A DNA stretch of 64,000 nt from positions 154 through 64,153 of the forward strand of contig MEPC01000039.1 in the NCBI GenBank assembly GCA_001769655.1, given 5' to 3'. This stretch comes from Bacteroidetes bacterium RIFCSPLOWO2_12_FULL_37_12 (GTDB lineage Bacteria; Bacteroidota; Bacteroidia; 2-12-FULL-37-12). This document shows positions 3,055 to 64,000 of the stretch, piece after piece. Made by a program: the position numbers and the translations under genes. The stretch's first letter is position 1; every line of letters starts with the position of its first letter. The notes under the pieces are model-generated. The model searched no databases. It was given only the letters and a program-made list of their open reading frames with translations, and was not told the DNA's origin.

Positions 3055-3090
3055 AGGTTTTATGTTAATGTGTTTCGATATTAATATGAA

Positions 3091-3134: not shown

Positions 3135-3164
3135 CACTTATTGCTTGTGGTACTTTCTATTTTT

Positions 3165-5535: not shown

Positions 5536-5564
5536 ATTCTTTCCCTATAATTTCAATCTATTAT

Positions 5565-5599: not shown

Positions 5600-5611
5600 T
5601 CCTACAAAAAT

Positions 5612-6018: not shown

Positions 6019-6039
6019 ATTTTTTTTATTTTTAAAAAA

Positions 6040-6080
6040 TTGAAAATAGAAAATAGGAAATAGAAAATAGAAAATAGAAA
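6040..6080 (+). repeat. STR-D heptamer tandem repeat (GAAAATA, about 6 units) abutting the tsaC start codon
   Basis: tgaaaatagaaaataggaaatagaaaatagaaaatagaaa is followed immediately by the ATG at 6081. Confidence 0.85.
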
Positions 6081-6641: not shown

Positions 6642-6752
6642 CGGTGTCGTTGTAATAAAAAACATACTAAATCTGAAATTTTTTGATTATTTATATAAAA
6701 AAAAGCATTTTTTGGTATTATTTATTGAATGACCTATACTATTCCTCCCCTC

Positions 6753-49810: not shown

Positions 49811-52102
49811 ATGAAAAACCTCTACAAATTACTTTTTTTCCTCATCTGCTCTTTGTCCTCCATGGCTCAATCAAACTGGGTAAAAAAAAATATTCCATCA
49901 ACTGCTGACCTGGAGCAAGTCGTTTTTTCCGATTCATTGCATGGGTGGATTGCTACTTATGATGGAAACATTCTGAAAACCACCGATGGGGGTGAAAATT
50001 GGTCATTGCAAAACGCAGGAAATGCATTGCCGCTTTATTCTTTGTATTTCACCGATTCGTTAAATGGTTGGACAGGGGGATATCTGGGAAAAATTCTACA
50101 TACAAACGATGGGGGCTTGAGTTGGACTTTGCAATCAAACGGTTTGACAGATATCGTTAACTCAATTTACTTTTTAGATGATTCTCTTGGTTTTGCCGCC
50201 GGTTCCAGGGGAAACATACTTCAAACACTAAATGGAGGACAGAACTGGAATGAAATATATCTGAATACAAATTTTTCTATCAAATCCGTTTACTTTCTGA
50301 ATTATCAGTCAGGATTTGCGGTTGGCACCAACGGATTTTTCCTAAAAACAATTGACGGTGGATTAACCTGGAATCAAATTATTAGCGGTCATACAGAATC
50401 ATTTAACGCTGTAATATTCATAACACCGGATTTGGGATTTTTGGTGGGAACCGGTGGATTAATACTAAGAACAATGGATGGTGGAAATTCCTGGCTTAAG
50501 ATGATTTCTCCTTCCACCTCAAATCTCAACTCCATTATTTTTGAAAATGAAATGATTGGCTGGATTTGTGGCGCAAACGGAGTCATTCTGAATTCAAAGA
50601 ATGGTGGCTCCTCCTGGTCTAATTCTTCACTTTTAAGCCAGGGAACCTACACCTCAGTGTCTTTATTGGGCTCAGAAAATTTATTTGTGTGCGGATATTC
50701 CGGTTCTGCCCTGAAATTTTATCCGGTTCTAACCGAAACACAAACAGTTCAAAACCCAGGTGACACGTTGGATTTTTCCAATCTTGGATTATTATTGTCA
50801 TTTCAGAATTTTACTCCCCCTGTTACAGGTCAACCACAGGTGCAGGTTTCAGGTCATTCTAAAGCGCCAATACATAGTCCTGTTCAGGATTCCATCGCCG
50901 GTTTATTTAACAAATTTTACTGGAATATTGAATCAAATCTCGATAGTTTTAATGTGACGATGTGTGTTTTATTTGATTCTACCCGGTTTAATACAACCTC
51001 ACTGCAACAATTGAATCTCATGTATAGCACGGCGGAAGGCAACCCGTGGAAAGTAATTGAAGTAATTCCTTTCAGAATGTCGGGTAGAATTTGCGCCACC
51101 ATTAATCACTTTTCCAATTGGACGATAGGTTTATCACGACCGGATGCCAAAGTCAGAATTGACACCATCTTATATAATAGCACTCAGGATTTTCAGGACA
51201 TTAAGATTAAAAATGATTTGTCGGGAATGGAATATGGTTACCGGCAAAAACCCGGACAAACGGATACTATATTTGCAAGACAGTATGCTATTAATCCCGG
51301 GGGAGATTTACCTGCAGAAATTACAGGTTTTCTTGGAAGTTATTATGAATTCAGAAGTTCTACCATAGATACCGTGTTTATGTATATAGACATTGCCTCA
51401 CAGGTTGGTTACAACGAATCTGAAAAAACCAACTATGTTTTATTATTCAGACCAGACCCTTCATTGGAATGGACCATTGTTTCAACACAGAGAGTTCGCA
51501 GAGGGCAAAAAGAAGCCATTTTTTCCAAACGGGCAGATTTCTCCGGTCAATATATTATTGGAAAATCCTATAGCAACAACGAGTTCTTTGAAGTAATTCC
51601 AACGGTAATTCCAGGATGTTTAAATGATACATCTTATTTTTCTGCTGTAGTTGCAGGTGGTATTGGAAATACAACGATTTCATGGTCGGGAGGAGAAGGG
51701 TTTACCGGAAATGGTGCTGAAGCATGGTATATTTTTAAAACCGTTGATACTGTTTTTTATACGGTTTCTGCAGAGGATGAAAACAAAGCCGTTTCATATA
51801 TTGATACTGTTTTTGCCATTGACTGTGTGACGGGTATTGATTATGAGAATGAATTAAATTCCTTTGATTTATTTCCAAATCCAATAAAAAACGGAACTAT
51901 TACTATTTCAATTCCGTGGAAAGAGAAAACGGAGGTTAGCTTATTAAATTCAATCGGAGAAGTACTACATGTAAATATTATTCCATTCGATTCAAACAAT
52001 CGTACTTTAAATTTTAATACTCTTAATCTTCCAAAAGGTGTATATTTAATAAAGATACAATCACGGAGTAAGATAATTGGAAAGTTGATGATAATCAATT
52101 AA
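49811..52102 (+). CDS. Secreted BNR/sortilin-type (Ycf48-like) beta-propeller protein with a T9SS sorting domain
   Basis: At least 8 repeats of T.DGG..W, and a C-terminal FDLFPNPIKNGTITISI...GVYLIKI. Confidence 0.8.
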   Translation: MKNLYKLLFFLICSLSSMAQSNWVKKNIPSTADLEQVVFSDSLHGWIATYDGNILKTTDGGENWSLQNAGNALPLYSLYFTDSLNGWTGGYLGKILHTNDGGLSWTLQSNGLTDIVNSIYFLDDSLGFAAGSRGNILQTLNGGQNWNEIYLNTNFSIKSVYFLNYQSGFAVGTNGFFLKTIDGGLTWNQIISGHTESFNAVIFITPDLGFLVGTGGLILRTMDGGNSWLKMISPSTSNLNSIIFENEMIGWICGANGVILNSKNGGSSWSNSSLLSQGTYTSVSLLGSENLFVCGYSGSALKFYPVLTETQTVQNPGDTLDFSNLGLLLSFQNFTPPVTGQPQVQVSGHSKAPIHSPVQDSIAGLFNKFYWNIESNLDSFNVTMCVLFDSTRFNTTSLQQLNLMYSTAEGNPWKVIEVIPFRMSGRICATINHFSNWTIGLSRPDAKVRIDTILYNSTQDFQDIKIKNDLSGMEYGYRQKPGQTDTIFARQYAINPGGDLPAEITGFLGSYYEFRSSTIDTVFMYIDIASQVGYNESEKTNYVLLFRPDPSLEWTIVSTQRVRRGQKEAIFSKRADFSGQYIIGKSYSNNEFFEVIPTVIPGCLNDTSYFSAVVAGGIGNTTISWSGGEGFTGNGAEAWYIFKTVDTVFYTVSAEDENKAVSYIDTVFAIDCVTGIDYENELNSFDLFPNPIKNGTITISIPWKEKTEVSLLNSIGEVLHVNIIPFDSNNRTLNFNTLNLPKGVYLIKIQSRSKIIGKLMIIN

Positions 52103-52203
52103 TGGGAGTGTATTAGGAAGCTATAATAATTTAACATTATAACATTATTCCAAAATTCCAATCTCGCATCTTACCTAAAATAAAAAATAATTTTCAAAAA
52201 TAG

Positions 52204-52234
52204 TTGTTACTATTAAATATTAACAGTATTTTTG
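52204..52234 (+). promoter_or_regulatory. Putative 16S rRNA promoter
   Basis: TTG (52204-52206), a 20-nt spacer, then TATTTTTG (52227-52234), about 170 nt upstream of the mature 16S 5' end. Confidence 0.4.
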
Positions 52235-52276
52235 CACCCTATTTGAAAAAACCTTTTGAATAAACTGGTTTTAACG

Positions 52277-52305
52277 TTCTTTGAAATTCGGAAAGAAACA
52301 GCAAG
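52277..52305 (+). other. 16S leader half of the processing stem (pairs with 53977-54005)
   Basis: ttctttgaaattcggaaagaaacagcaag is complementary to the trailer ctcttgttgtttcttccgttttcagagaa: about 24 Watson-Crick pairs, 2 G-U pairs and 2 small bulges. Confidence 0.7.
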
Positions 52306-52404
52306 CTAGAAAAAAGTAAGGTAGAAATACCCTTGATTTTCTTAATAGAACCAGAAATGGTTTAATAAACAAAGGTTCAAATCTGAAGACACTAGATCAA
52401 ACTT

Positions 52405-53933
<1,529 letters not shown>

Positions 53934-53976
53934 GGAGATTTTGAACCGGGTGATGTCTGGTTTCACCAGCTCACCA

Positions 53977-54005
53977 CTCTTGTTGTTTCTTCCGTTTTCA
54001 GAGAA
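53977..54005 (+). other. 16S trailer half of the processing stem
   Basis: See 52277-52305. It lies 46 nt after the 16S 3' end and 18 nt before the convergent helicase stop codon. Confidence 0.7.
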
Positions 54006-54022
54006 TTTTTTATCAATCTACT

Positions 54023-57000
54023 TCATCTCATCCAATACCTAACAAAATTACACCACCCACATTCCTCTTTCCCGCATCCCTTTGAAAATTCACGGTTCAT
54101 TATCTTCTGATAAACATCCTTTATCAGATTTGTAACAAATTTTACATCTTCAGAGGTAAATATTACTTTCTCCTTTATGAAATCATCTTTCTTTTTATGC
54201 TTTTCTATAAAATCAATTTCCCCGCTGATGACAATTCCCGGCAGTGATTTTTTTGTGTCAAGAAGAATCTTATAAAATACCAACTGCCGCCAGTAATCGC
54301 CTCCGTAAGGTTCTGTTTCTGCATCCGGTCTGACTAATTTCTTAATCCCATTTTCAACATTACCGGTTTTGTAATCAACCACATTAACAGCACTGCCTTC
54401 TATTTCAATTTTATCAATAATTCCGTTTATGGGTATTCCATCTAAAAATAAATTAGGATAATGTTTTTCAGGCAACACATTTTTGTGCCAGGTTCTAACA
54501 TACTTTTCGTAATACTCAGGCAATATTTTTTCGCCATAATCAATCCGGTTTTTCCATTCTGCCTCTGTAAAACACTCTTTATTCCGTTTCATGCCTTCAT
54601 GAAAATAAGTGATGAATTCTGTCAGCACAGGAAATATATAATTCGTCTTCTGCATGACAGAAAATATTTTCTCAAGGGCATGATGAATGGCGCTACCAAA
54701 ACCAAGCGCCTCATTCTTGGCAGTTGGAACCTGTATCAAATGCTTGTAGTAAAAAGAAACCGGACAATCAATGTAACTGGATAAGTGAGTGGGTGAAAGG
54801 GAGTATTTTTTTAATAATTCATCGAGATGAATTTTATCGAGCAATTCGATCTCCGGAGCATCTTCTTCCATCATAGCCAACGACTGAAATTCAACTAATT
54901 CATCTTCGGATAAATTCCGGTTCTCAAAGGTTATGTCATCTGATTCCATTAATTCAGCCACATAACGCGATTTTTCCAACCCTTTTTCATTAAAATTCTG
55001 ATTGGAAAAAGAAATGATTAAGCCCTCTTTTGCACGCGTCAACGCCACATAAAATAACCGGCGGGCTTCTTCTGCTTCTTCCTCATCACTGAAATTTTTT
55101 ATTATCAGGTTATCCGGAAAAGAAAAAGGCATACGCCCTCCGGCAGAATCCCAAATATTTGCTGTGCATCCGATTAAAAAAACATGATGGAATTCAAGTC
55201 CTTTAGAACCATGGGCTGTTAAAAAATTGACCCCCTCCCCTATTCCGGTGATGCGGATGATTTCAAGGGCTATTTCATGCTTTTCCATCTTTTCAAGAAT
55301 TAATAAAAATTCACGGACGTGCATGGAAGGATTTTTGGCAGTTTCTGATTTTATAAAATCAAAAAATGCGGTCAGCAGATTCATTAAGTAATATTTATCG
55401 GGTGACTTTAATATAAAAGAAAGAATACCGCCACGAGTAATAATCTTTTCAAACCATCCCTGCAAGGTCAAATTAGCAATGGCTCCCGTCCAAAAAGTAA
55501 AATCATCATGAATACGTGAAATATTTTCAATTCCGGAAATACCTGTTTTAAACATCCTTTCTCTGGATGCCATCATATCGCGAAGATGAATTTTCTGTTT
55601 GTGGCACTCAAGTGTCATTAAGGCAATGTCACCGGCATTAATTCCAAAAAAATCAGCATGTAATAATTCAAACAACAGAATATTTCCGCTACCGGGTTTT
55701 TCATATTCTTTAGAAAGATAGGATAGCAACCGGATTATTTTCTTTATAAAAACTGCTGAGAGAATATTTTCTTTTCTTTTAACGAGGACAGGAACCTTTT
55801 TATGATTTAAATATTTTAATAGCGGATCGGGCTGAATATGCTGACGATAAATTACTGCAATTTCAGAGGGATTAGCGCCATTTTCCAGCAAGCGCATAAT
55901 TTCATGGGCAAGGTCAGCATACTCATGATAAATATTCGGGTACTGAAGAATAGCAGGCATAGTGACACTTGAGCCAATTTTTATATTACTTGCTTTGAGA
56001 TTTTTATCAATACCGGGCATGATTCCGGATAAGCGTTTGTTATTTCGTTTAATAAAGGAAGTAGCCGTATTGAGAATTTTCTGTGTAGAACGATAATTTT
56101 CCACCAGCGTGATTTTTGTTATGGAACCGGAATACTTAGTGGCAAAGTCCTCCATATTCTCCACGTTGGCTCCCTGAAACCTGTAGATGGATTGGTCGTC
56201 GTCTCCCACAATAAATACGTTGGGATTATCCCAGAAACTGACGAGTTTTTTCAGGATTTCATTCTGGGAACCATTGGTGTCCTGATATTCATCCACCAGA
56301 AAATACTGGTATCTTTCCTGGTAGGAACTTAGCAAATCCGGTTTTTTAGCGAACCCATCGTTCACCCAGTTAATCATATCATCGTAATCATAACGACTTG
56401 CCTGCATCATAAACGTCCGGTAATTTTTCAATTCAAATACCGCTGAACGCAACCGTTCTTTTTTTTCTGTTTCTTCCCGTATTCTTGCCACTTTTAAGTC
56501 CCCAACATTTGCATCTTTTGTTTTTTTCTTATAGCGGAATTCTTCTTTGTCAGGCAGTCCTTTTAAATATTCATCTATTTTCTGAGAAATAAATTCAGGA
56601 GTCCAACCTTCTTTTTGCATGATGCTAAAAAGTTTCAGCAAATTGATGATGTCACTGTGATAATCGCCTTTGAATCTTTTTAGAGGATGATTAACGGGAA
56701 GATCCATCAGCATTTTTTCTACCAGTTCAAATTTTTCGAGGTCAGAGACCGGTTGGAGGTCTTTGAAACCGAAATACTCCTGATTTTCCTGAATGATTTG
56801 ATTGCAAAAAGCGTGAAAAGTATAAATGTGAAGATTATAGGCGATGGGTCCGATGAGTGACACTAATCGCTCGCGCATGGCAATGGTTGCGGCATCTGTA
56901 TAAGTGAGGCATAGTATTTCATGGGGTTGAACCTGGAGGTCTGCATGTGATAATAATTTCCCGATTCTTGCTGAGAGAATCTGTGTTTTGCCGGTACCCG

Positions 57001-57115
57001 GACCTGCTATGACCATAACGGGACCTTCGAGTGAGTCCACAGCTTTTTTCTGAGCCGGGTTTAATTTTTTGAGTTCGGCTGAGAAAGATTGGTGATATTT
57101 GGAATCGGGGGGCAT
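54023..57115 (-). CDS. UvrD/PcrA-like superfamily 1 DNA helicase fused to a C-terminal PD-(D/E)XK nuclease domain
   Basis: Walker A VIAGPGTGKTQ, FLVDEYQDTN, VGDDDQSIYRFQGA, and a C-terminal nuclease region ending in the Cys cluster CGKEECGWCNF. Confidence 0.88.
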   Translation of the reverse strand: MPPDSKYHQSFSAELKKLNPAQKKAVDSLEGPVMVIAGPGTGKTQILSARIGKLLSHADLQVQPHEILCLTYTDAATIAMRERLVSLIGPIAYNLHIYTFHAFCNQIIQENQEYFGFKDLQPVSDLEKFELVEKMLMDLPVNHPLKRFKGDYHSDIINLLKLFSIMQKEGWTPEFISQKIDEYLKGLPDKEEFRYKKKTKDANVGDLKVARIREETEKKERLRSAVFELKNYRTFMMQASRYDYDDMINWVNDGFAKKPDLLSSYQERYQYFLVDEYQDTNGSQNEILKKLVSFWDNPNVFIVGDDDQSIYRFQGANVENMEDFATKYSGSITKITLVENYRSTQKILNTATSFIKRNNKRLSGIMPGIDKNLKASNIKIGSSVTMPAILQYPNIYHEYADLAHEIMRLLENGANPSEIAVIYRQHIQPDPLLKYLNHKKVPVLVKRKENILSAVFIKKIIRLLSYLSKEYEKPGSGNILLFELLHADFFGINAGDIALMTLECHKQKIHLRDMMASRERMFKTGISGIENISRIHDDFTFWTGAIANLTLQGWFEKIITRGGILSFILKSPDKYYLMNLLTAFFDFIKSETAKNPSMHVREFLLILEKMEKHEIALEIIRITGIGEGVNFLTAHGSKGLEFHHVFLIGCTANIWDSAGGRMPFSFPDNLIIKNFSDEEEAEEARRLFYVALTRAKEGLIISFSNQNFNEKGLEKSRYVAELMESDDITFENRNLSEDELVEFQSLAMMEEDAPEIELLDKIHLDELLKKYSLSPTHLSSYIDCPVSFYYKHLIQVPTAKNEALGFGSAIHHALEKIFSVMQKTNYIFPVLTEFITYFHEGMKRNKECFTEAEWKNRIDYGEKILPEYYEKYVRTWHKNVLPEKHYPNLFLDGIPINGIIDKIEIEGSAVNVVDYKTGNVENGIKKLVRPDAETEPYGGDYWRQLVFYKILLDTKKSLPGIVISGEIDFIEKHKKKDDFIKEKVIFTSEDVKFVTNLIKDVYQKIMNREFSKGCGKEECGWCNFVRYWMR

Positions 57116-57147
57116 GTGAGAACTTGATTTTTAATTTGACTCGTCCT

Positions 57148-57233
57148 GAAAAAAAATTCTGTCCGGAAGCGGATTCGGTGCGACAGTGACTTTTTTTTCT
57201 TGTAATAAGAGCGCAACGAAGTGTTAGTTGTTA
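57148..57233 (-). repeat. Island repeat R0 (degenerate core only)
   Basis: aaaaaaaattctgtccggaagcggattcggtgcgacagtgac...gcgcaacgaagtgttagttgttat aligns with the cores of R1, R2 and R4. The right hairpin arm is lost. Confidence 0.65.
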
Positions 57234-57853
57234 TCGCCTGTTTTTATTTCTTCATGTTTGTCATCTGTCAAGTTTAAATTACCATTTTCTGTCAATGTAC
57301 CAATTTTAGAATTAATCAAAACTATGTCACTGTTTGGAATTGGTTGTCCTAAACTGTCGCATTGATACTCATAATTTATTGAATCAGCACAATAAATTGT
57401 AAGGTCTTTATTTACAATTCCTGTTTCAGAGCAATAAGTAATCCCGCAATCACCGCCACAGCCATTTACAATTAGATTGGTTTGGTCTAAAAGAATTCCA
57501 TATTTGTTATAAGTAGCTAACATCGGGTAGTAGTTATCGGCAGGATAAAAAAAAATAAGAGAGAAGAATTTTGAAGTGTCAGGAAGTATGCCAAAACATT
57601 TTATTCCGTCAAGATAATCCGCCTTTATATAAAGTGTGTCGTTGGATTTTGGGTCTATGCCTACCATTTTGTCAAGGTCAAAGTTTTCAATATAGTCAAC
57701 GTATCTGAAAATAAAAGGTAAGTCGATGATTGTAAACTTTTTCAAGAACTGTCTGAATGTATCAGGTTGAGCATTATAAGTTTTTTTCTCTGCTACTTTG
57801 TTATGGCAGGAAAACAAAAATAATGTTGATAAAAATGTTGTTAAAATTCTCAT
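57224..57853 (-). CDS. Hypothetical lipoprotein (cassette 1)
   Basis: MRILTTFLSTLFLFSC lipobox. The ATG at 57853 is preferred to the TTG at 57871. The stop codon lies within R0. Confidence 0.6.
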   Translation of the reverse strand: MRILTTFLSTLFLFSCHNKVAEKKTYNAQPDTFRQFLKKFTIIDLPFIFRYVDYIENFDLDKMVGIDPKSNDTLYIKADYLDGIKCFGILPDTSKFFSLIFFYPADNYYPMLATYNKYGILLDQTNLIVNGCGGDCGITYCSETGIVNKDLTIYCADSINYEYQCDSLGQPIPNSDIVLINSKIGTLTENGNLNLTDDKHEEIKTGDNN

Positions 57854-57887
57854 TTTTGTAGTCGTCCTCAAGTAACCGATAATTTCA

Positions 57888-58243
57888 TTCCATCTAAAAA
57901 ATTACCTTTCAATAGCAAAATTACATAAAATTCGAATGTGATGAAAGCGATATAGAGAAGGTAAAAAAAATAGAGTGGAATGTAAATTAAAAATTTGGAA
58001 TCTACCTGTAGTAGTATTTTGCTTTTAGGAAAGTCAAAAATCCAGAAAATAAAAAAAATTCTCTCAGGAACTTCTTTAATACAATATTGTAAACATAGCG
58101 AATTTACCTTTTTAACGAAAACCCCATAAAGAAAAAAACTCAACAATCAAAGAGGGGAAAAAATCTTCCGTCCAGAGGCAGATTTAGTGCAACAGTGGCT
58201 GAATTGCATGTCCTAAGGACGCAACGAAGCCATAGTTGTTATA
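57888..58243 (-). repeat. Island repeat R1 (full length, about 355 bp)
   Basis: Aligns end to end with 61656-62004. Shared blocks are tcc.tctaaaaa, agcgatat, gtcaaaaatccagaaaataaaaaaa, ttaacgaaa, ccagaggcagatttagtgcaacagtgg and ggacgcaa.gaa.c.tagttgtta. Confidence 0.85.
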
Positions 58244-58262
58244 TGCAGTTTTTTGTCATTCG

Positions 58263-58574
58263 TTACAGGATTCTCAATGAAATCTTGCGACCAAGTCCAA
58301 GTTCTAAAAGCCGGTAAAGTGTTGATAGTTGAATGTCACTGTGTCCATTTTCAATTCTTGAAATGAAGCTCTTTTTTGTCCCCGTTTTATCAGCTAATTG
58401 CTCTTGTGTCATTGAAGATGATTGTCTTTCTTCTTTAATTACTTCGCCAATAGCAAATGCTTTAGCTTTGATTTCAAAATTAGTTCTTTTTATTGTCCCA
58501 ATTTTACCGTAACGACTGTCAAGGTGTTCGTCAAAAGTTGTAATGTTCTTAATGTTTTGATTTTTTGTTTTCAT
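58263..58574 (-). CDS. XRE-family HTH antitoxin (HigA-like)
   Basis: The HTH segment MTQEQLADKTGTKKSFISRIENG. It starts 6 nt after the ancestral toxin stop. Confidence 0.8.
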   Translation of the reverse strand: MKTKNQNIKNITTFDEHLDSRYGKIGTIKRTNFEIKAKAFAIGEVIKEERQSSSMTQEQLADKTGTKKSFISRIENGHSDIQLSTLYRLLELGLGRKISLRIL

Positions 58575-58579
58575 TTTAT

Positions 58580-58926
58580 CTAATTTTTATTTTTTTTCGA
58601 AAAATATTCATCTTTAAATTTTAGTGCTCTTTCAATTTCTGATTGAGGTGTCTTTTGTGATTTTTTTTGAAAACCGTTGAATAACACAACAACTTTCCCC
58701 TCATCAAAACAACAGAATATCCTGTAAATATTACTCTGAAACTCAACTCTGATTTAATAAAGTCCTTCTGTTCCGGTAATATGTCAAAGAACTTTTTCGG
58801 GATTCTATCAGTAACCGTCACCACAAATAAAACGTGGTCTATCTTTTCTTTTACTTTCTCAGTTTGCTCGTTAAAGAAGTTCAAAAAGTAGTCCTTGAAA
58901 TAAATTATTTGTCTTACTTTTTCCAT
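58580..58926 (-). pseudogene. RelE/ParE-superfamily (HigB/Gp49-like) toxin, inactivated by a frameshift and an in-frame stop
   Basis: The track frame gives ...DRIPKKFFDIL and then nonsense. A second frame reads HITGTEGLY*IRVEFQSNIYRIFCCFDEGKVVVLFNGFQKKSQKTPQSEIERALKFKDEYF, the conserved toxin core, with TAA in place of a sense codon and TGA further upstream. Confidence 0.75.
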
Positions 58927-59031
58927 TATTTTCTTTTCGTGACAAAGTTAACTAATAATGGAACAAATTCCAAATGGTTACTGTAAAATATTTTATAAAG
59001 TGCAGCTTTATTAAAATAGCATATAACGTCA

Positions 59032-59114
59032 GTCCGTCTAAAAACTAAAATTCACCAGCAAAAATACACAAGACCCGGATGAAATAGAAGCGATATACGG
59101 AAGGAAAAAAATAT
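59032..59114 (-). repeat. Island repeat R3 (distal third only)
   Basis: gtccgtctaaaaacta..ttcaccagcaaaaataca...cggatg.aatagaagcgatat.cggaagg is nearly identical to the distal end of R2. Similarity stops at about 59114. Confidence 0.8.
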
Positions 59115-59175
59115 TACTACTCAGGTAGGGGCTTGCTCTTGCAATTTCCTACGTTAGCTTGTGTGCCCAATTACG

Positions 59176-59183
59176 TATATTTG
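59176..59183 (+). promoter_or_regulatory. Putative -7 promoter box of the R-M operon
   Basis: tatatttg (TAnnTTTG) lies 17 nt upstream of the ATG at 59201. Confidence 0.35.
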
Positions 59184-59200
59184 CCCAAAAATATACAAAA

Positions 59201-60184
59201 ATGAATGTAAAGGAAAGGACGCTCAATGCGAAAAATGCCGAAAGAAAAGTAAAGAAATATAAATCCAAAGGATCTAAATTTCAAGTTCTCCATGAGGATG
59301 GAGTCATATATGAAACCGAAGAAACGTCTAAAATTATTGATATAGGGATTGACAAATCTTGCCAATGTGTTGGGAACAAGATAAACTGTCTTACTGCAAA
59401 AGATTGGTTAAAAAATCAACTCGGCGTCTGGGAGTTTTATTATGAGAAGCGCGATATAAGAGATAAAACTGTCCACCCGGCAACTTTCCCGATTTCAATG
59501 GCTCGTAAAGTCATTGAACTTTTTTCTCACGAAGGCGAACTTGTACTAGACCCATTTGTTGGTAGCGGAACTACGCTTGTTGCTTGTCAAGATACAAACC
59601 GTAATGCTGTTGGTTTTGATTTGCAAAAAAAATATGTGGATCTCAGTAACAAAAGATTGTCTAATCAACAATTATTTAATAGTTCAAAGCAATTGGCAAT
59701 ATTAGATGATGCAAGAAATATAAGTCAGCATTTGAAACCGCGATGTGTTAAGTTGATTTGGACTTCACCTCCTTATGCGAACTTATTGAACCGTGAAAGA
59801 AAAAATAAATCTCGTAGAGATAGAGATAACGGACAACTCGGGAAAGTTGAACAATACTCCCAAGACGAAAGAGATTTGGGAACTTTAGAATTAGAAATTT
59901 ACGCAAAACAAATGGGTGATATTTATGAATCACTCTTGTCAGTATTGCGTGATGATGGGCATTGCGTTATAAATGTCCCTGATATGTGGTGGGATAACAA
60001 ACGAATAACTATTCATATTTCATTAATTGAAGAATTGCGAAAAAGGGGTTATGAATTCCGAAATACAATTATTTGGGATAGAAGAAATGTAGTAAATAAC
60101 ATTGGGATTTTTGGGTGGCCGTCCAATTATATTACGATGGGAACTACATTTGAATATCTTTTACATTTTAAGAAACCGAAATGA
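59201..60184 (+). CDS. DNA methyltransferase (N4/N6 MTase family, SPPY motif; probable N4-cytosine specificity)
   Basis: HPATFPISMARKVIELFSHEGELVLDPFVGSGTT (AdoMet motif I) followed by IWTSPPYANL (motif IV). The ATG at 59201 is preferred over 59159. Confidence 0.8.
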   Translation: MNVKERTLNAKNAERKVKKYKSKGSKFQVLHEDGVIYETEETSKIIDIGIDKSCQCVGNKINCLTAKDWLKNQLGVWEFYYEKRDIRDKTVHPATFPISMARKVIELFSHEGELVLDPFVGSGTTLVACQDTNRNAVGFDLQKKYVDLSNKRLSNQQLFNSSKQLAILDDARNISQHLKPRCVKLIWTSPPYANLLNRERKNKSRRDRDNGQLGKVEQYSQDERDLGTLELEIYAKQMGDIYESLLSVLRDDGHCVINVPDMWWDNKRITIHISLIEELRKRGYEFRNTIIWDRRNVVNNIGIFGWPSNYITMGTTFEYLLHFKKPK

Positions 60185-60978
60185 AAATAGATTTGCTCAA
60201 CATTCCTAAGGAAGTATTATTAAAAAAATTAAAAGCAATTCGGCGGAAAGGTTGGATTCACACAAACCGTTCGAAGAACGATGGTGCTGTCGGAAATACA
60301 CTGGAAGATTTATTGGAAATTCCTGAAAATAATTTAGCTATTGCAAATACCGTTGATTGGGAACTGAAAGCACAACGCAAGAGCACCGGGTCAATGATTA
60401 CCTTGTTTCATATTGACCCACAACCGAGAAAACCCGAAAGTGTTGTCACAAGAATTATTTTACCAAATTATGGATGGTCTCACAAAGAGGCAGGAAAAAA
60501 ATATCCGAAAACTGAAATGAGTTTCCGTGCTACACTAAATGGCGTTTCCTATACCGATAGAGGATTTAAATTGAATGTTGAGAGTGTCAGACGAACTGTT
60601 GAAATTGTTTTTAATCCAAAAAAAACTCACAAGAAACACTACGATTGGTATAATAGAGTTGTTGGTTATCATGGAGAAGTTGAAAAAGTATTTGCATCTT
60701 GGTCATTTGATGATTTGCAAAAAAAATGTATCGGTAAAATTTGCAATACTATTTATGTGGTTGCAGATAGTCGAACTGTCAATGGGCAAGAAGAATTTAA
60801 ATATGAAAAAATTGAACTTTTAGAAGATTTTGCTTTCAATAATTTTCTTCGTGGTCTCATCAATGGAAAAATACTTGTTGATTTTGATGCCCGTACCGGA
60901 CATAACCATGGAACAAAATTTCGAATCAAACAAAACAATTGGCCGGTCTTGTTTTCCAAAGTTACAGAATTGAAGTAA
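60181..60978 (+). CDS. Type II restriction endonuclease, MutH/MvaI/BcnI-like (tentative)
   Basis: Its start overlaps the MTase stop (ATGA). VDWELKAQRK fits a D...E.K nuclease core. The family assignment is from memory of this fold, not from a search. Confidence 0.5.
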   Translation: MKIDLLNIPKEVLLKKLKAIRRKGWIHTNRSKNDGAVGNTLEDLLEIPENNLAIANTVDWELKAQRKSTGSMITLFHIDPQPRKPESVVTRIILPNYGWSHKEAGKKYPKTEMSFRATLNGVSYTDRGFKLNVESVRRTVEIVFNPKKTHKKHYDWYNRVVGYHGEVEKVFASWSFDDLQKKCIGKICNTIYVVADSRTVNGQEEFKYEKIELLEDFAFNNFLRGLINGKILVDFDARTGHNHGTKFRIKQNNWPVLFSKVTELK

Positions 60979-60999
60979 GTGTTTTTTACAAACTGAAGT

Positions 61000-61550
61000 C
61001 CCAATTCCATTTTGTACGACAGTCCTGCTTTTGTCATACAGCTGTGGGAACCACAAGAGTGAAACATTACAAAACGCCCTTCTGCCAAATGTGTCCTGTA
61101 TTAAATCAATGTACAAAAAATACGGGAGGAAGAGGAAGGGTAATTGAGCGGAACGAAAATCAGGATGCAGTGGATAGAAATAATTTCAGAATAAAAACAC
61201 AAAGAGAGCTTTACAACAGACGGCAACAAATTTGCGAGCATCCCTTTGGTACGATTAAACGACAATGGGGATTTACCTACACCTTACTCAAAGGATTACA
61301 AAAAGTGGACGGAGAGATGGGAATCATTTTTATCTGCTACAATTTAAGAAGAACCATTTCAATATTCGGAGTAAAAAAACTATTGAAGAAACTTAAAAAA
61401 TGGAAACCGGATTATCCGCCAAAGGACGGATTCGGTAAGGCGAACAAAAATACACTTAGCCAAGGAGGGAAAATTTTGTTTTTGCATAAAAGTGACACAA
61501 TGCGAGGTGTTGTGGCACTAGTAAAATTTTCATATTGTCTTACGGCATGA
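61000..61550 (+). mobile_element. IS1182-family transposase, 3' fragment only
   Basis: FCQMCPVLNQCTKN...YNRRQQICEHPFGTIKRQWGFTYTLLKGLQKVDGEMGIIFICYNLRRTISI matches the C-terminal third of IS1182-type DDE transposases. The N-terminal two thirds are missing. Confidence 0.7.
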
Positions 61551-61655
61551 AAAAATGGAACGCTCTTAATGCTTCTGTTGGGTTGTAATAGAATTTAAAA
61601 CGGGATTTTGAAATGGAAATCTTTAAAAAATAGGTTTTTTCACAATCTGACGGCA

Positions 61656-62004
61656 GTCCGTCTAAAAACTACCTTTCACCAGCAAAAATACATAAAAAAC
61701 GGATGTAATAGAAGCGATATGCGGAAGGGAAAAAAATAGTGTGGAATAAAAATTAAAAATTTGAAATCAACCTGTAGTGGTATTTTGATTTTAGGGAAGT
61801 CAAAAATCCAGAAAATAAAAAAATAAGTTCTCTCTGAAACTTCTTGAACATATTTTTGTAAACAAAACCACTCTACTTTTTTAACGAAACCCATAGAAAA
61901 AAAACACAACGATCAAGGGGGGAAAAAACTTCCGCCAGAGGCAGATTTAGTGCAACAGTGGTTGAATTGCATGTTATAAGGACGCAATGAACCTTAGTTG
62001 TTAG
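61656..62004 (-). repeat. Island repeat R2 (full length)
   Basis: See R1. Confidence 0.85.
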
Positions 62005-62159
62005 TGATAGGTGTTCTCTTTTGTCCGTCTTGTCAGCCGATACTTTCTTCGGATTTGTTCCAAGCGTTTGCGTCTCAACGCTGGATTTTTTTCATACTCT
62101 TTTTGCAATTTTTTTCTTATGGAACGCATTTCTTTAACTGCATCAAATTCTTTTTCCAT
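62001..62159 (-). CDS. Small basic helical protein (52 aa) downstream of the PIN gene; candidate partner
   Basis: Below the track size cutoff. Own translation: MEKEFDAVKEMRSIRKKLQKEYEKNPALRRKRLEQIRRKYRLTRRTKENTYH. The start is 8 nt after the PIN stop, and the stop lies inside R2. Confidence 0.45.
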   Translation of the reverse strand: MEKEFDAVKEMRSIRKKLQKEYEKNPALRRKRLEQIRRKYRLTRRTKENTYH

Positions 62160-62167
62160 TGTTTTAT

Positions 62168-62620
62168 TTATTTTAAGATTTCTCTTGGGTTACGAATTTC
62201 AAGCATTGTATAACCGTTCATCAAATTTACCGCATTGTATTTCCTAATACGGTCAAGGTTAACAATGTGTTTAAAGTTCCAACTTACCAAAACATCAACT
62301 TTGTTAACTGTAGCAATAGCAATGTGCAAAGCATCTTCGTGAGATTTTTGAGTTACTGCTTTCTCCTTGATATATTTGTCAGCAAGTTCTTCCGCTTGTT
62401 CGTCATTAAAAACATATTCTTTATGGTCGTTGGGAATAGTGTCAAGGTGATTGCAAACTTCTGGTCTTGAAAAAGAAAGTTCGTCAAGCGTGATGTCAGA
62501 AATTACAGCAATTTTATTTCCACTCCGAAAATCGTCAAATAACTTGTCCGACCATTCCTTAAATTCTTTGTCAAAGCAACCACCAACTACTGAAGTGTCA
62601 ATGTAAATCCGTTGTTTCAT
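62168..62620 (-). CDS. PIN-domain nuclease (VapC-like)
   Basis: Acidic residues in the typical PIN context: IYIDTSV, DELSF, EDALHIAIA and VSWNFKHI. Confidence 0.75.
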   Translation of the reverse strand: MKQRIYIDTSVVGGCFDKEFKEWSDKLFDDFRSGNKIAVISDITLDELSFSRPEVCNHLDTIPNDHKEYVFNDEQAEELADKYIKEKAVTQKSHEDALHIAIATVNKVDVLVSWNFKHIVNLDRIRKYNAVNLMNGYTMLEIRNPREILK

Positions 62621-62638
62621 AGTTTATTTATCTGTCCG

Positions 62639-62646
62639 CAAATTTA
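62639..62646 (-). promoter_or_regulatory. Putative -7 promoter box of the PIN operon
   Basis: On the minus strand, taaatttg (TAnnTTTG) lies 18 nt upstream of the PIN ATG. Confidence 0.35.
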
Positions 62647-62861
62647 AGAATTTTATTTCAATTGTTCCATCACGGTGCGGTCGTCATACGCTTACCGCTA
62701 ACTGCAGTTTGTGAAAAATCCCACCTTAATTTGTGATAAATATCCATTAAAACTTTTATTTACACACAGACGAATAAAAATCTAGTCCACTGTTTCAGCG
62801 CTTTTCGTGCTCATTGCACAATCATATATTTGTGCAAAATTTAACTTAATTTAAAAAATTT

Positions 62862-62960
62862 ATGAAACATACATGTGGACTAGATGTGCACAAAGATACG
62901 ATTTTTTGTGCCATCTATAATGGTAAAAAAAGCAGCGAAGTAAAAGAGTATTCAACTCGG
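62862..62960 (+). mobile_element. IS110-family transposase, N-terminal fragment (about 32 codons)
   Basis: MKHTCGLDVHKDTIFCAIYNGKK matches the N-terminal GxDVHKD motif of IS110-family transposases. Similarity is lost after about 62960. Confidence 0.65.
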
Positions 62961-62989
62961 CAAGGTTACTTTTGGTTACAAAGATTACC

Positions 62990-63309
62990 GCAAAGGGGCG
63001 CAAAAACTGGAAATGACACTGGAAGGTATGGAATTCATAAGAAGGTTTTGTATGCACATACTGCCCTCAAAATTTGTGAAAATACGCCATTACGGAATAC
63101 TCAGTGCCACAAGTAAAAAAACGACTCTTCCACAAATCAAATCTTTGTTACCGGAACAATCCCAGATTAAAAAAGCACCGGAAGAACCCAGAGAATTAAA
63201 TGAATTTAAACCGGGTATATGTCCTTATTGCAAAACAGAAACGATGCTTACGATAGAAATATTTTTTAAGCGAGGACCTCCCGTGTCATTTCTAAAAAAC
63301 AGTGCATGA
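62990..63309 (+). mobile_element. IS91-family (HUH/Y2) transposase, C-terminal fragment
   Basis: FIRRFCMHILPSKFVKIRHYGILS followed by CPYC matches the tail of IS91-family transposases. Confidence 0.65.
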
Positions 63310-63643
63310 ATAAAAATTTTAAATTTTACATCGCAAAAAAAACTGCAAATGAGCAAGATGGGAGTGCTATTTTCATCAAAGAAAAAAACAAGATAAAATT
63401 TTTTGAACTATTCAAAAAGCAAATCCAAAAAAGAAATTTATTATTTAAAAAGATGAAGAAAAAAAATCTTTATAAAAGAAACAGCAAGAACATCAACATA
63501 GTTACTCTATCTATTTAACGAAATCCCCATAGAGGAAAAAAACACAACAATCAAGGGGAAAAAAAACTTCCATCCAGAGGCCGATTCAGTGCAACAGTGG
63601 CTTCATTGCATATCCTATGGACGCAACGAAGCCTTAGTTGTTA
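63295..63643 (-). repeat. Island repeat R4 (core plus diverged extension; distal end replaced by the IS91 fragment)
   Basis: The core ttaacgaaatccccatag...ccagaggccgattcagtgcaacagtggcttcattgcat...ggacgcaacgaagccttagttgtta is conserved. The extension still aligns in blocks (cagtgcatgaataaaaatt, aaatccaaaaaagaaa). Confidence 0.75.
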
Positions 63644-63654
63644 CCAGCTGCCTT

Positions 63655-64000
63655 TTATTTGATAATTGAAATAAGGTTCTTTTCAGCCAATTCCAATATT
63701 GTGTAAGTTTTACCTTCAACCACCACCTTCATTTCAAATATTTCAGATATAGGTGAAATATAGGAAACATTTGGACCGTCATCATTGAAATCAAAACTTG
63801 TACTATTTACACCTATAATTTGTCCCGCTTCATTCGCAACTGGAGCACCACTTGCTCCACCCAATATTTTCATATTTGTTTCATAACAATGTCCTGGGAG
63901 CATATAACTATCCCGACCATTTGGAAATTCTTGGGTTACGTTACCAAAATGCCAAGAAGTATTAAAGTCTAATATCCATTTTCCTTCTTCCCTTTTGATT
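63655..64000 (-). CDS. Trypsin-like (S1/S1C) serine protease, C-terminal part; continues past the window end
   Basis: GGASGAPV active-site serine context. The frame stays open from 63903 up to position 64000, so the listed Met is not the start. Confidence 0.65.
   Translation of the reverse strand, partial: IKREEGKWILDFNTSWHFGNVTQEFPNGRDSYMLPGHCYETNMKILGGASGAPVANEAGQIIGVNSTSFDFNDDGPNVSYISPISEIFEMKVVVEGKTYTILELAEKNLISIIK

What the first reader, a model, noticed from the sequence alone, without database searches (positions are those of the whole stretch)
57148..64000. Repeat-delimited array of unrelated cassettes (lipoprotein, HigBA-like, PIN plus small ORF, protease) next to the helicase gene: integron-like layout with no integrase in view
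Five copies (R0-R4) of one conserved element lie in the same orientation. In four of them the core sits immediately 3' of a minus-strand gene or gene pair, with stops at 57224, 58263, 62001 and 63655, and sometimes contains the stop codon. The bracketed genes are functionally unrelated, small, and typical cargo for integron cassette arrays or defence islands (toxin-antitoxin pairs, a PIN nuclease, a lipoprotein, a protease). The array ends at a decayed copy (R0) 33 nt from the helicase start and runs off the window at 64000. No tyrosine or serine recombinase is visible in the window, and the repeat only partly fits the canonical attC box consensus. It could therefore be a lineage-specific cassette system, a cluster of attC-like sites lacking the integrase, or simply a locally amplified intergenic module.
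Basis: partly seen in the sequence, partly recalled or inferred. Interest (0 to 1): 0.8.

Follow-up and report, generated by a model that had tools for sequence, protein, structure and literature searches.

The report
Decayed IS91-type transposon ends, not integron
The repeats that separate these small accessory genes are the hairpin-bearing ends and miniature derivatives of a known kind of rolling-circle insertion sequence (IS91 family, ISWz1-like) from Bacteroidota, so the region looks like an integron cassette array but is not one.

Summary
The repeat is real. Four co-oriented core copies lie at 57.1-63.7 kb and nowhere else in the window. A fifth "copy" is only a 90-nt piece of the element's other end.

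Each core starts at TAACAAC, directly 3' of a minus-strand gene, and folds into a ~55-nt hairpin followed by a second small hairpin and a T-run.

The same hairpin sits 162-272 nt past the stop codon of an IS91-family transposase in about 11 lineages. These include five complete plasmids of cultured Bacteroidota that RefSeq annotates as "tyrosine-type recombinase + IS91 family transposase" (ISWz1-like). Near-identical copies of the element carry the hairpin into unrelated flanks, so it is the transposase-distal (oriIS-type) end.

In the window:
- R4 is a right end with a transposase remnant.
- R1 and R3 are complete ~360-nt derivatives with no ORF and two different ends.
- R2 is a left-end fragment.
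- R0 is a right-end stub.

No recombinase is present. The recombinase of intact relatives lacks about 35 residues where integron integrases carry their specific insertion. Flanks share a target pattern (A-rich, C-W-R-Y, N3).

Verdict: a new member of a known kind. The integron reading is not supported. How the alternating array arose is unresolved.

The parts
57148..57238 (-). R0: decayed right-end (oriIS-type) stub. It has a hairpin-1 remnant, a hairpin-2-like segment and a T8 run. It lies between the lipoprotein stop and the helicase start (57115).
   Evidence: Covariance-model hit 57170-57238, 62.9 bits. Alignment. Sequence.
57224..57871 (-). 215-aa lipoprotein-like ORF (an ATG at 57853 is also possible). 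Its last two codons and its stop lie inside R0 (…GAT AAC AAC TAA).
   Evidence: No Pfam, NCBIfam or PADLOC family.
57878..58241 (-). R1: complete ~360-nt element with no ORF. The oriIS-type terminus TAACAAC is at 58241, followed by hairpin 1, GTTGCAC, hairpin 2 and a T-run. The ter-type end near 57878-57886 is decayed here.
   Evidence: (families D1-D6). TAATTTTG motif 24 nt before the terminal motif.
58263..58574 (-). 103-aa HTH (XRE/HipB-type) antitoxin-like gene. Its stop lies 21 nt before R1.
   Evidence: HTH_3 at 5.8e-13. TIGR03070 below its cutoff.
58621..58926 (-). 101-aa ORF upstream of the HTH gene. It may be a toxin partner, but this is unverified.
   Evidence: No family hit in Pfam, NCBIfam or PADLOC.
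59021..59111 (-). R2: only the ter-side ~90 nt of the mini-element, ending …TTTTTAGACGGACTGACGT. It has no hairpin core.
   Evidence: 86% identical to 61645-61735 (D2). Alignment. TATTTTTG motif retained.
59159..60184 (+). Type II N4/N6 DNA methyltransferase, on the opposite strand to the other cargo genes.
   Evidence: PF01555 at 1.1e-31. PADLOC MTase_II 438 bits.
60181..60978 (+). MvaI/BcnI-family type II restriction endonuclease.
   Evidence: PF15515 at 1e-57. PADLOC REase_II 222 bits.
61044..61358 (+). C-terminal remnant of an IS1182-family DDE transposase.
   Evidence: tblastn 57.5% identity to L024 IS1182 residues 361-431. PF13751.
61645..62003 (-). R3: complete ~360-nt element with no ORF. 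The oriIS-type terminus is at 62003. The ter-type end …GACGGACTGCCGTCAG lies at about 61645.
   Evidence: Hairpin 2 plus T-run is flagged terminator-like at 61945-61931.
62001..62159 (-). 52-aa ORF whose stop codon is the first TAA of R3.
   Evidence: No family hit.
62168..62620 (-). 150-aa PIN-domain protein.
   Evidence: PIN_3 at 2.8e-4, below its cutoff. The same protein occurs on 15 contigs.
62862..62957 (+). First 32 codons of an IS110-family transposase. The gene is intact in other strains (L004, L005).
   Evidence: tblastn 100% over residues 1-32..
62944..63306 (+). C-terminal ~115-120 codons of an IS91-family HUH (Y2) transposase. It reads toward R4.
   Evidence: PF04986 at 1.4e-9. 45% identity to L024 and L034 transposases, residues ~261-378.
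63310..63643 (-). R4: right (oriIS-type) end of that truncated IS91 copy. The terminus TAACAAC is at 63643. Hairpin 1 (63581-63648), hairpin 2 and the spacer back to the transposase stop follow.
   Evidence: 91.4 bits. The block 63144-63643 is 92.6% identical to L021, where it has a different upstream gene.
63655..64000 (-). 3' part of a 258-aa trypsin-like serine protease gene. The full length is seen in L003.
   Evidence: Trypsin_2..

Best explanation
Identity. The R element is the transposase-distal, oriIS-type end of an ISWz1-like IS91-family rolling-circle insertion sequence. This is the Bacteroidota subgroup that encodes a Xer/IntI-like tyrosine recombinase immediately upstream of the HUH (Y2) transposase.

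Ends of the element. The right end carries two subterminal palindromes. Hairpin 1 is TAACAAC-TAA-GGCTTCGTTGC…GCAATGAAGCC-ACT-GTTGCAC, and hairpin 2 follows it. The terminus is exactly TAACAAC. The other end (ter-type) is different and carries one small palindrome (…TTTTTAGACGGACTGNCGT).

What the window holds. It has no autonomous copy, only relics.
- R4 is a right end still attached to the last ~115 codons of tnpA.
- R1 and R3 are complete ~360-nt derivatives with both ends and no ORF.
- R2 is a ter-side fragment.
- R0 is an 85-nt right-end stub.

Inferred, not shown.
- These pieces were mobilised in trans by a full-length copy, through a single-stranded intermediate of the strand that reads 5'-TAACAAC….
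- They inserted next to a preferred target (A-rich run, C-W-R-Y, 3 nt). Because that target resembles the element's own ter end, insertions accumulate head to tail.
- Skipping of the ter end (one-ended transposition) may have carried adjacent DNA, such as the restriction-modification pair lying between R3 and the extra ter fragment R2.
- As side effects, each element supplies stop codons in two frames and a hairpin plus T-run behind the upstream gene. Each also carries an outward-facing TAnnTTTG box 24 nt before its ter end, in front of the next gene.
For: 1. Left boundary. In 19 distinct copies conservation starts exactly at TAACAAC and the upstream DNA is unrelated.

2. The hairpin moves with the IS. 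L024 and L019 share a 2.4-kb block containing a 323-aa tyrosine recombinase and a 375-aa IS91 transposase (NF033538, 443 bits). The block has 27-nt imperfect inverted repeats, and its right end is the hairpin. Three copies with identical hairpin and post-hairpin sequence (L015, L020, L024) sit behind three unrelated genes.

3. Constant position. Hairpin 1 is found 162-272 nt past the transposase stop, always convergent. This holds in the window (R4), L024, L027, L028, L031 (twice) and five complete plasmids of cultured Arenibacter, Myroides, Chryseobacterium, Sphingobacterium and Tenacibaculum. RefSeq annotates these as 'tyrosine-type recombinase/integrase' plus 'IS91 family transposase'. The transposases are only 45-65% identical to each other.

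4. Pairing. 85% of cells are paired against 18-45% when partners are slid. Five pairs have double changes in 23 cells. 0 of 500 shuffles reach the observed covariation score.

5. R4 and L021 share 500 nt (transposase remnant plus end) at 92.6% identity but have different upstream genes.

6. Two-ended mini-elements. R3, L016a, L026a and L026b share both boundaries in different contexts, and R1 has a decayed far end at the same position. The variant L022b and the fragment R2 share the far end.

7. Match to published IS91-family anatomy. oriIS lies at the right end with 1-2 subterminal palindromes and terIS has one. There is no target duplication. The target resembles the ter cleavage motif. Ter skipping occurs at 1-14%. 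The functional intermediate is a bottom-strand ssDNA circle (PMC13181058). IS801 produces 229-, 360- and 679-nt right-end miniatures and captures DNA beyond its left end (PMC3189936).

8. Target pattern. In 19 copies, position -7 is C in 16, -6 is A or T in 18, -5 is a purine in 18, and -12 and -11 are A in 17. Six independent copies reproduce it, with -7 C in 6/6 and -6 A or T in 6/6. The mini-element's own last 7 nt (CTGNCGT) fit the pattern.

9. The whole window holds only remnants of IS91, IS110 and IS1182 transposases and no recombinase.
Against: - No intact copy of the window's own lineage was recovered. The closest transposase relatives are 65% identical or less, and every database hit is 201 aa or shorter. 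The in-trans mobiliser is therefore assumed.
- The ter-type end of the window's mini-elements lacks the GTGCAAC inverted-repeat tip seen in L024 and in the plasmid copies.
- Canonical IS91 members are described as lacking inverted repeats and as having a target tetranucleotide that directly abuts oriIS. Here there are 27-nt inverted repeats, and the conserved C-W-R-Y sits 3 nt away.
- The near-absolute co-orientation with the gene on the hairpin's 5' side is not explained by anything known about IS91. All 19 copies show it, and there is one exception among the five plasmids (catB in L033).
- No transposition intermediate or event was observed. Every step about movement is inference.
Confidence: 0.85

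Rival explanations
1. Integron-type cassette array, or a CALIN (cluster of attC sites lacking an integrase). On this view the hairpins are attC sites recombined by an IntI integrase lying beyond the contig end, and each ORF plus its downstream hairpin is one cassette.
For: - The hairpin has attC-like architecture: AAC…GTT boxes, a 3-nt unpaired spacer and an imperfect inner stem.
- It lies 3' of small accessory ORFs, all in one orientation, and sometimes contains the stop codon.
- The contig ends about 700 nt beyond the window, so an integrase further on cannot be excluded.
Against: - The mobile unit's boundary is at the 5' edge of the hairpin, and the hairpin travels with the downstream DNA. 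In a cassette it would stay with the upstream ORF and be cut in the 3' GTT box.
- The hairpin is linked to IS91 transposase genes at a fixed distance in about 11 lineages.
- TAACAAC matches RYYYAAC at only 4 of 7 positions.
- The only associated recombinase lacks the IntI insertion.
- No recombinase is present in the 64 kb.
Confidence: 0.03
2. The outer ~48 nt of hairpin 1 is an independent, pre-existing site at the 3' ends of accessory genes. ISWz1-like elements would then merely target it, as IS1111-attC elements target attC sites, rather than carry it as part of the IS.
For: - The inverted repeats of the full-length IS end at TGTTGCAC, so the outer part of the hairpin lies outside the inverted repeat.
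- L023 keeps the hairpin only up to CCACTGT, and L022a only 12 nt further.
- L019 and L032 have GTTGCAC again just outside their left ends.
Against: - Three copies with identical hairpin and post-hairpin sequence (L015, L020, L024) sit behind three unrelated genes. Copies that are old (R1, R3, R4) differ from each other by 16-29%.
- The hairpin co-diverges with the transposase lineage. TAACAAC/GTTGCAC goes with one lineage and TAATAAC/GTTGAAC with another, and the inverted-repeat tip at the left end changes in step.
- Short right-end stubs are what IS91-family one-ended events are known to produce (PMC3189936).
Confidence: 0.07
3. The repeat is a structured RNA or a terminator-promoter module selected for gene regulation and spread by homologous recombination, with no transposition involved.
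For: - Pairing is maintained by compensatory changes.
- Hairpin 2 plus a T-run looks like an intrinsic terminator.
- A conserved TAnnTTTG box faces the next gene.
Against: - No Rfam family matches the region.
- Both boundaries are sharp and are followed by unrelated DNA in several genomes.
- The element is physically continuous with IS91 transposase genes.
- The single-sequence fold z-scores are weak, between -0.8 and -2.0.
- Regulatory effects are more simply explained as by-products of the inserted element.
Confidence: 0.03

Closest known systems
ISWz1 and related Bacteroidota IS91-family elements (tyrosine recombinase plus IS91 transposase), known from tet(X)/catB/bla clusters of Myroides, Chryseobacterium and Elizabethkingia (PMC9751785, PMC11194056)
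   Same: - The same two-gene organisation is seen in the full-length relatives (L024, L032-L036).
- They carry the same right-end hairpin with terminus TAA(C/T)AACTAAG at 162-226 nt past the transposase stop.
- The same target pattern lies outside the terminus.
- Accessory or resistance genes are sandwiched between copies.
   Different: - The window has no intact copy, only a transposase remnant, two 360-nt derivatives without an ORF, and stubs.
- Its transposase remnant is only about 45% identical to the L024 and Chryseobacterium (L034) transposases.
- The papers read here name the elements but do not describe their ends, the hairpin or target choice, as far as I could find.
IS91, IS801 and IS1294: the canonical rolling-circle insertion sequences, with one-ended transposition and IS801 miniature right-end derivatives (PMC13181058, PMC3189936)
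   Same: - The two ends are different. The right end has one or two subterminal palindromes and the left end has one.
- There is no consistent target duplication.
- A short target motif resembles the left-end cleavage motif.
- Right-end miniatures of a few hundred nt exist.
- Capture of DNA lying beyond the left end is known for these elements and is inferred here.
   Different: - Here there is an additional tyrosine recombinase gene and 27-nt terminal inverted repeats.
- The conserved target letters (C-W-R-Y) are offset by 3 nt and preceded by an A-rich run.
- The mini-elements have a defined second end of their own.
- There is strong co-orientation with the neighbouring gene.
Integron attC sites, cassette arrays and CALINs
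   Same: - Imperfect hairpin with AAC…GTT boxes and an unpaired spacer.
- Location 3' of small accessory ORFs in one orientation.
- Arrays of unrelated cargo.
- The recombinase of the autonomous relatives belongs to the 'integron-like' subgroup of tyrosine recombinases (bioRxiv 10.1101/542381).
   Different: - There is no IntI, and the recombinase lacks the IntI-specific insertion.
- The unit boundary is at the 5' edge of the hairpin, not in the 3' box.
- The hairpin is linked to an HUH transposase.
- Cargo genes are not each tied to a hairpin of their own.
ISCR elements (IS91-like 'common regions') with outward-facing promoters (PMC6218425)
   Same: They are IS91-type elements that sit beside unrelated accessory genes and may drive their expression from an end.
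   Different: ISCR promoters lie at the oriIS end. Here the conserved TAnnTTTG box lies at the ter-type end, and its activity is untested.

Membership tests
Integron (cassette array / CALIN) | An IntI tyrosine recombinase carrying the IntI-specific insertion, next to the array | tested here: not met
   - No tyrosine or serine recombinase similarity anywhere in the 64 kb (tblastn seeds).
- The recombinase of intact relatives has 28 residues where IntI4 (2a3v) has 63, and it aligns end to end with XerA.
- NCBIfam integron-integrase models score below their cutoffs (174 against 265; 102 against 435).
- DNA beyond 64,700 nt does not exist in the assembly.
Integron (cassette array / CALIN) | attC site with RYYYAAC … GTTRRRY boxes around an imperfect palindrome | tested here: inconclusive
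   AAC and GTT are invariant and pair as CAAC/GTTG, with a 3-nt unpaired spacer and an inner stem. However, TAACAAC fits RYYYAAC at 4 of 7 positions and GTTGCAC fits GTTRRRY at 6 of 7 (read from the sequence).
Integron (cassette array / CALIN) | A hit to the attC covariance model of IntegronFinder or HattCI | not testable with these tools
   That model is not available here, and no Rfam family reached its gathering threshold anywhere in 57-64 kb.
Integron (cassette array / CALIN) | Cassette boundary inside the 3' box (G|TT), so each hairpin belongs to the ORF upstream of it | tested here: not met
   Conservation breaks at the 5' edge (TAACAAC). The hairpin is shared together with the downstream DNA while the upstream genes differ. 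This is seen for R4 against L021 and for L015, L020 and L024.
IS91 family (ISWz1-like subgroup) | HUH Y2 transposase (Zn_Tnp_IS91 plus Y2_Tnp) | tested here: met
   The window has a C-terminal remnant at 62944-63306 (PF04986 at 1.4e-9; 45% identity). Relatives have full-length genes (NF033538 443 bits; RefSeq annotation). No intact gene is present in the window.
IS91 family (ISWz1-like subgroup) | A right end downstream of tnpA with one or two imperfect subterminal palindromes (oriIS) | tested here: met
   Hairpin 1 and hairpin 2 lie 162-272 nt past the transposase stop in about 11 lineages.
IS91 family (ISWz1-like subgroup) | A different left end with a single subterminal palindrome (terIS) | tested here: met
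   The mini-elements end in …TTTTTAG-ACGG-ACTG-CCGT at a shared boundary in five contexts. Full-length copies share GCTACC-N4-GGTTTAGTKCAACA at the left end. Homology between the two kinds of left end is only partial.
IS91 family (ISWz1-like subgroup) | No target-site duplication | tested here: met
   The flanks outside the two ends of R3, L016a and L026b share no repeat. L026a has TAGC on both sides, which I take as chance.
IS91 family (ISWz1-like subgroup) | A short target motif next to oriIS that resembles the ter cleavage motif | tested here: met
   C-W-R-Y at -7 to -4 after an A-rich run in 19 copies plus 6 independent copies. The mini-element's last 7 nt, CTGNCGT, fit it. It differs from the canonical CTTG/GTTC in sequence and in its 3-nt offset.
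IS91 family (ISWz1-like subgroup) | Rolling-circle transposition through a single-stranded circle | not testable with these tools
   This needs an in vivo or in vitro assay.
MITE (miniature inverted-repeat transposable element) | Terminal inverted repeats and a target-site duplication | tested here: not met
   The two ends of the 360-nt units are different. No inverted copy of the right-end tip exists in the window, and there is no consistent duplication.

The most novel reading that the evidence does not exclude
The array may be the product of a cassette-like capture system that runs on rolling-circle transposition rather than on an integron integrase.

On this reading, a ~360-nt non-autonomous IS91 derivative (ori hairpin, outward promoter, ter end) together with the gene just beyond its ter end moves as one unit by ter read-through. 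Each unit lands next to the ter-like motif of a resident unit, and this builds co-oriented arrays of terminator-promoter-gene modules.

The autonomous relatives encode the tyrosine recombinases closest to IntI, and their ori end is an attC-shaped single-strand hairpin. These elements could therefore also be a living relative of the ancestor of integrons, with the recombinase acting on the folded hairpin.
Probability: 0.12. Interest if true: 0.8.

Novelty: new member of a known kind. Interest (0 to 1): 0.4.

Why it matters
1. Annotation. In Bacteroidota, the ends of IS91-type elements mimic the layout of integron cassettes, with a hairpin carrying AAC…GTT boxes behind small accessory genes. They could be mistaken for attC clusters that lack an integrase.

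2. Tracing resistance genes. The autonomous relatives (ISWz1-like) flank tet(X), catB and beta-lactamase genes in Myroides and Chryseobacterium. Knowing their exact termini, the hairpin and the target pattern (A-rich, C-W-R-Y, N3) makes it possible to delimit what they moved.

3. Genome evolution. The window shows how such elements decay into 360-nt derivatives and stubs that end up as the intergenic regions of a defence or accessory island. In that position they may supply terminators and promoters.

4. Open question. It is not explained why the hairpin end almost always faces the 3' end of a co-oriented gene.

Tried and rejected
- Rfam, whole window, gathering threshold. Only 16S rRNA and RNase P were found, and nothing in 57-64 kb.
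- Scan of species-representative genomes with a 19-base core pattern. It gave four hits, in Polynucleobacter, Enterococcus and a Gemmatimonadaceae MAG, which is the chance level I had estimated. The source species is not in that collection.
- Extending past 64000. The source contig is only 64,700 nt.
- Synteny through the flanking helicase. The nearest homologue is 50% identical, so no close genome is available.
- Search for an inverted left-end copy of TGTTGCACTRAATC in the window. Only the four known sites matched at 2 mismatches or fewer, all on the minus strand. The rest was at background level.
- Idea that the flank motif is a remnant of a ter end, or that the two flanks rebuild a terminator hairpin split by the insertion. 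L024's flanks can be read that way, but R3, L016a and L026b cannot, so I dropped it.
- Sigma-70-type promoter scan. It gave 30 sites against 24.6 expected, which is uninformative, and the scan does not model Bacteroidota promoters.
- Considered and rejected: a CRISPR-like array (no short regular spacing); REP/RAYT or IS200/IS605 relics (no such transposase, and IS91 linkage instead); a DGR target hairpin (unrelated target genes, no reverse transcriptase); a guide-RNA scaffold of IS110 or TnpB type (the flanks show a fixed target pattern, and the element is linked to IS91 rather than to IS110).

Full report
THE OBSERVATION

The repeat is real and local. Repeat finding and a four-way alignment show a conserved element on the minus strand with 5' ends at 63643 (R4), 62003 (R3), 58241 (R1) and 57233 (R0, decayed). 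Core patterns match nowhere else in the 64 kb. The 24-nt pattern gives 2 matches against 0.00 expected. The 14-nt pattern matches at 2 mismatches or fewer only at the four sites.

Two ORFs end on a TAA inside the element's first ten bases, TAACAACTAA. Independent ENA, NCBI and JGI assemblies reproduce the gene order at 99-100% identity.

Two corrections are needed. First, the fifth 'copy' (59021-59111) has no core and matches only the far end of the long repeat. Second, R1 and R3 are ~360-nt units (57878-58241 and 61645-62003), not ~130-nt cores.

ANATOMY

Read on the minus strand, each copy begins TAACAAC-TAA-GGCTTCGTTGC…GCAATGAAGCC-ACT-GTTGCAC. This forms a ~55-nt hairpin. A second small hairpin with a T-run follows it, and then a C-run…G-run segment ending in CGTTAAA.

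A metagenome scan with a pattern that fits all four window copies returned 12 loci. In every copy the sequence to the left of TAACAAC is unrelated. A second lineage keeps the hairpin through compensatory changes (GGCTTC/GAAGCC becomes GGTTTC/GAAACC, and GTCC/GGAC becomes GGTC/GACC), but what follows the hairpin is different there.

A covariance model of the hairpin found no further copies in the window. On 19 distinct sequences, 85% of cells pair, against 18-45% when the partners are slid. Five pairs show double changes in 23 cells. 0 of 500 shuffles reach the observed covariation score. That alignment was fitted to the model, so these counts lean its way. The hand alignment gives the same direction.

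WHAT IT BELONGS TO

In locus L024 the hairpin abuts a 2.37-kb element with two genes. One is a 323-aa tyrosine recombinase. Its stop overlaps the start of a 375-aa IS91-family transposase (NF033538, 443 bits; Zn_Tnp_IS91 plus Y2_Tnp). The element has 27-nt imperfect inverted repeats, TGTTGCAC plus a GC-rich palindrome, so the 3' arm of hairpin 1 is the tip of the right inverted repeat.

L019 carries the same block at 99.6% identity, and its contig stops exactly at TAACAAC. L015, L020 and L024 have identical hairpins and identical sequence after them, as far as the contigs run, yet they sit behind three unrelated genes, and their flanks differ right up to TAACAAC. The hairpin therefore moves with the IS, and TAACAAC is its terminus.

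The window's own R4 has the last ~115 codons of an IS91 transposase in the same position and orientation. The 500-nt block of transposase remnant plus end is 92.6% identical to L021, where the upstream gene is different.

Relatives of that remnant on long contigs (L027, L028, L031) all have the hairpin 232-244 nt past the transposase stop. L031 also has a second, more diverged copy, whose terminus lies about 336 nt past the other remnant's stop.

Five complete plasmids of cultured Arenibacter, Myroides, Chryseobacterium, Sphingobacterium and Tenacibaculum were also examined. RefSeq annotates them with 'tyrosine-type recombinase/integrase' plus 'IS91 family transposase'. All five have the hairpin 162-226 nt past the stop, with terminus TAATAACTAAG. 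The Myroides element is called ISWz1 in the literature (PMC9751785). The tetX-catB11-IS91-XerD cluster of Chryseobacterium is the same kind of element (PMC11194056).

FIT TO WHAT IS KNOWN ABOUT IS91

Published work describes the following (PMC13181058):
- Two functionally different ends.
- oriIS at the right end, with one or two imperfect subterminal palindromes.
- terIS at the left end, with one palindrome.
- No target duplication.
- A short target motif that resembles the ter cleavage motif.
- Skipping of the ter end in 1-14% of events, which mobilises adjacent DNA.
- A bottom-strand single-stranded circle as the functional intermediate.

IS801 produces 229-, 360- and 679-nt right-end miniatures and captures DNA beyond its left end, with the transposase acting in trans (PMC3189936).

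The window's pieces match this picture.
- R1, R3 and three copies in other loci share both boundaries. The far end is …GGTGAAAGGTAGTTTTTAGACGGACTGNCGT, which contains a small palindrome (decayed in R1), and unrelated DNA follows it.
- R2 is the last ~90 nt of such a unit.
- R0 is an 85-nt right-end stub.
- Full-length copies share a left-end motif, GCTACC-N4-GGTTTAGTKCAACA. This is the inverted partner of the GTTG(A/C)AC at the hairpin.

TARGET PATTERN

Outside TAACAAC, 19 distinct copies share a degenerate pattern. There is an A-rich run (A in 17/19 at -12 and at -11). Position -7 is C in 16/19, -6 is A or T in 18/19, -5 is a purine in 18/19, and -4 is a pyrimidine in 15/19. Three variable bases follow. 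Six copies not used to find the pattern reproduce it: C 6/6, A or T 6/6, purine 5/6, pyrimidine 6/6.

The three copies with identical hairpins (L015, L020, L024) differ in these bases, so the pattern belongs to the target and not to the element. The mini-element's own last seven bases (CTGNCGT) fit it. This agrees with the IS91 rule that the target resembles the ter site. It also offers a reason for head-to-tail accumulation, though that is inference.

WHY IT IS NOT AN INTEGRON

- The window has no similarity to the tyrosine or serine recombinase seeds.
- Against the IntI4 structure, the recombinase of intact relatives aligns in two pieces, with 28 residues where IntI4 has 63. It aligns end to end with XerA. 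Its integron-integrase model scores are below their cutoffs.
- Smyshlyaev et al. already place IS91-borne recombinases in an 'integron-like' subgroup that lacks the IntI insertion.
- The unit boundary is at the hairpin's 5' edge, and the hairpin goes with the downstream DNA. This is the opposite of a cassette.
- The attC covariance model itself could not be run.

THE GENES BETWEEN THE COPIES

- A lipoprotein-like ORF with no family hit.
- An HTH antitoxin-like gene, with an unassigned 101-aa partner upstream of it.
- A type II methyltransferase and an MvaI/BcnI endonuclease, both on the opposite strand.
- An IS1182 remnant.
- A PIN protein with a 52-aa ORF.
- An IS110 stub.
- A trypsin-like protease.

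WHAT REMAINS INFERENCE

- Mobilisation in trans by a full-length copy.
- Capture of the restriction-modification pair by read-through from R3 to the extra ter fragment R2.
- Terminator activity of hairpin 2 plus the T-run. The scan flagged it only in R3.
- Promoter activity of the TAnnTTTG box, which is conserved 24 nt before the ter motif in all six copies. Its reading as a Bacteroidota -7 box rests on my own knowledge.

All 19 copies have the hairpin facing the 3' end of a co-oriented gene. Among the plasmids the only exception is catB in Myroides. Nothing known about IS91 explains this.

In Tenacibaculum a gene is sandwiched between two full-length copies. In Myroides, tet(X2) lies just beyond the ter end in the hairpin's sense. 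The alternating layout is therefore a family trait and not a peculiarity of this window.

VERDICT

The integron interpretation is not supported. The feature consists of relics and miniature derivatives of an ISWz1-like IS91-family element embedded in an accessory-gene island. It is a new member of a known kind and of moderate interest. There is a low-probability but interesting possibility that these elements work as a rolling-circle cassette system related to the ancestry of integrons.

Noticed in passing
window 52405-53931 (+), with 53932-54022 and 50000-64000: A complete 16S rRNA gene (1528.7 bits) is followed 92 nt later by the stop of the convergent helicase gene. No tRNA is found in 50000-64000, and Rfam reports no 23S or 5S rRNA anywhere in the window. 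The 16S gene appears to be unlinked from the rest of the rRNA operon.
   Followed up: partly
window 62862-62957; L004 840-2045; L005 1140-2345: The window keeps only the first 32 codons of an IS110-family transposase, fused to the IS91 remnant. Other strains (99% identical across the PIN gene) carry the intact 401-aa IS110 gene there, with different DNA beyond it. This locus therefore varies between strains, but the breakpoint is at the IS110 element and not at an R boundary.
   Followed up: partly
L028 5520-5789 (-) and L031 1365-1625 (-): In two unrelated genomes a small GIY-YIG endonuclease ORF sits on the opposite strand immediately upstream of the Y2_Tnp part of an IS91 transposase. In L031 it lies between the zinc-ribbon part and the Y2 part. 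This could be a homing-endonuclease insertion that splits the transposase gene.
   Followed up: no
protein search of window 62962-63306: All 116 database relatives of the transposase C-terminal fragment are 201 aa or shorter, with a recurrent length near 191 aa. Many lie on contigs of 1-2 kb. Either these genes are mostly broken or split in this clade, or assemblies routinely break inside the element.
   Followed up: no
L018 7-324 and L024 4147-4476: Two loci share about 200 nt of non-coding sequence (78% identical, rich in ACA/CAG motifs) between the nearest gene and the hairpin. This suggests a further conserved segment or small element upstream of the hairpin in that lineage.
   Followed up: no
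L019 about 1845-1880 and L032 about 1950-1995 (left-end flanks): Just outside the left inverted-repeat tip, both elements have …CAACA-(C/A)GGGTAACC-GTTGCAC-AA…. This forms a 7-bp stem with the inverted-repeat tip. L024 lacks the second GTTGCAC. It is unclear whether this belongs to the left end or is a remnant of a resident hairpin used as the target.
   Followed up: partly
L033 (Myroides odoratimimus p63039) 641-7056: tet(X2) lies just beyond the left (ter-type) end of one int-IS91 copy, in the hairpin's sense. catB lies between that copy's hairpin end and a second int-IS91 copy. This arrangement would allow capture by ter read-through.
   Followed up: no
One annotated assembly (L002) does not call it at all. 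It may be degenerate or a novel toxin.
   Followed up: partly
window 5609-6025 (+): A bacterial class A RNase P RNA gene (257.8 bits).
   Followed up: no
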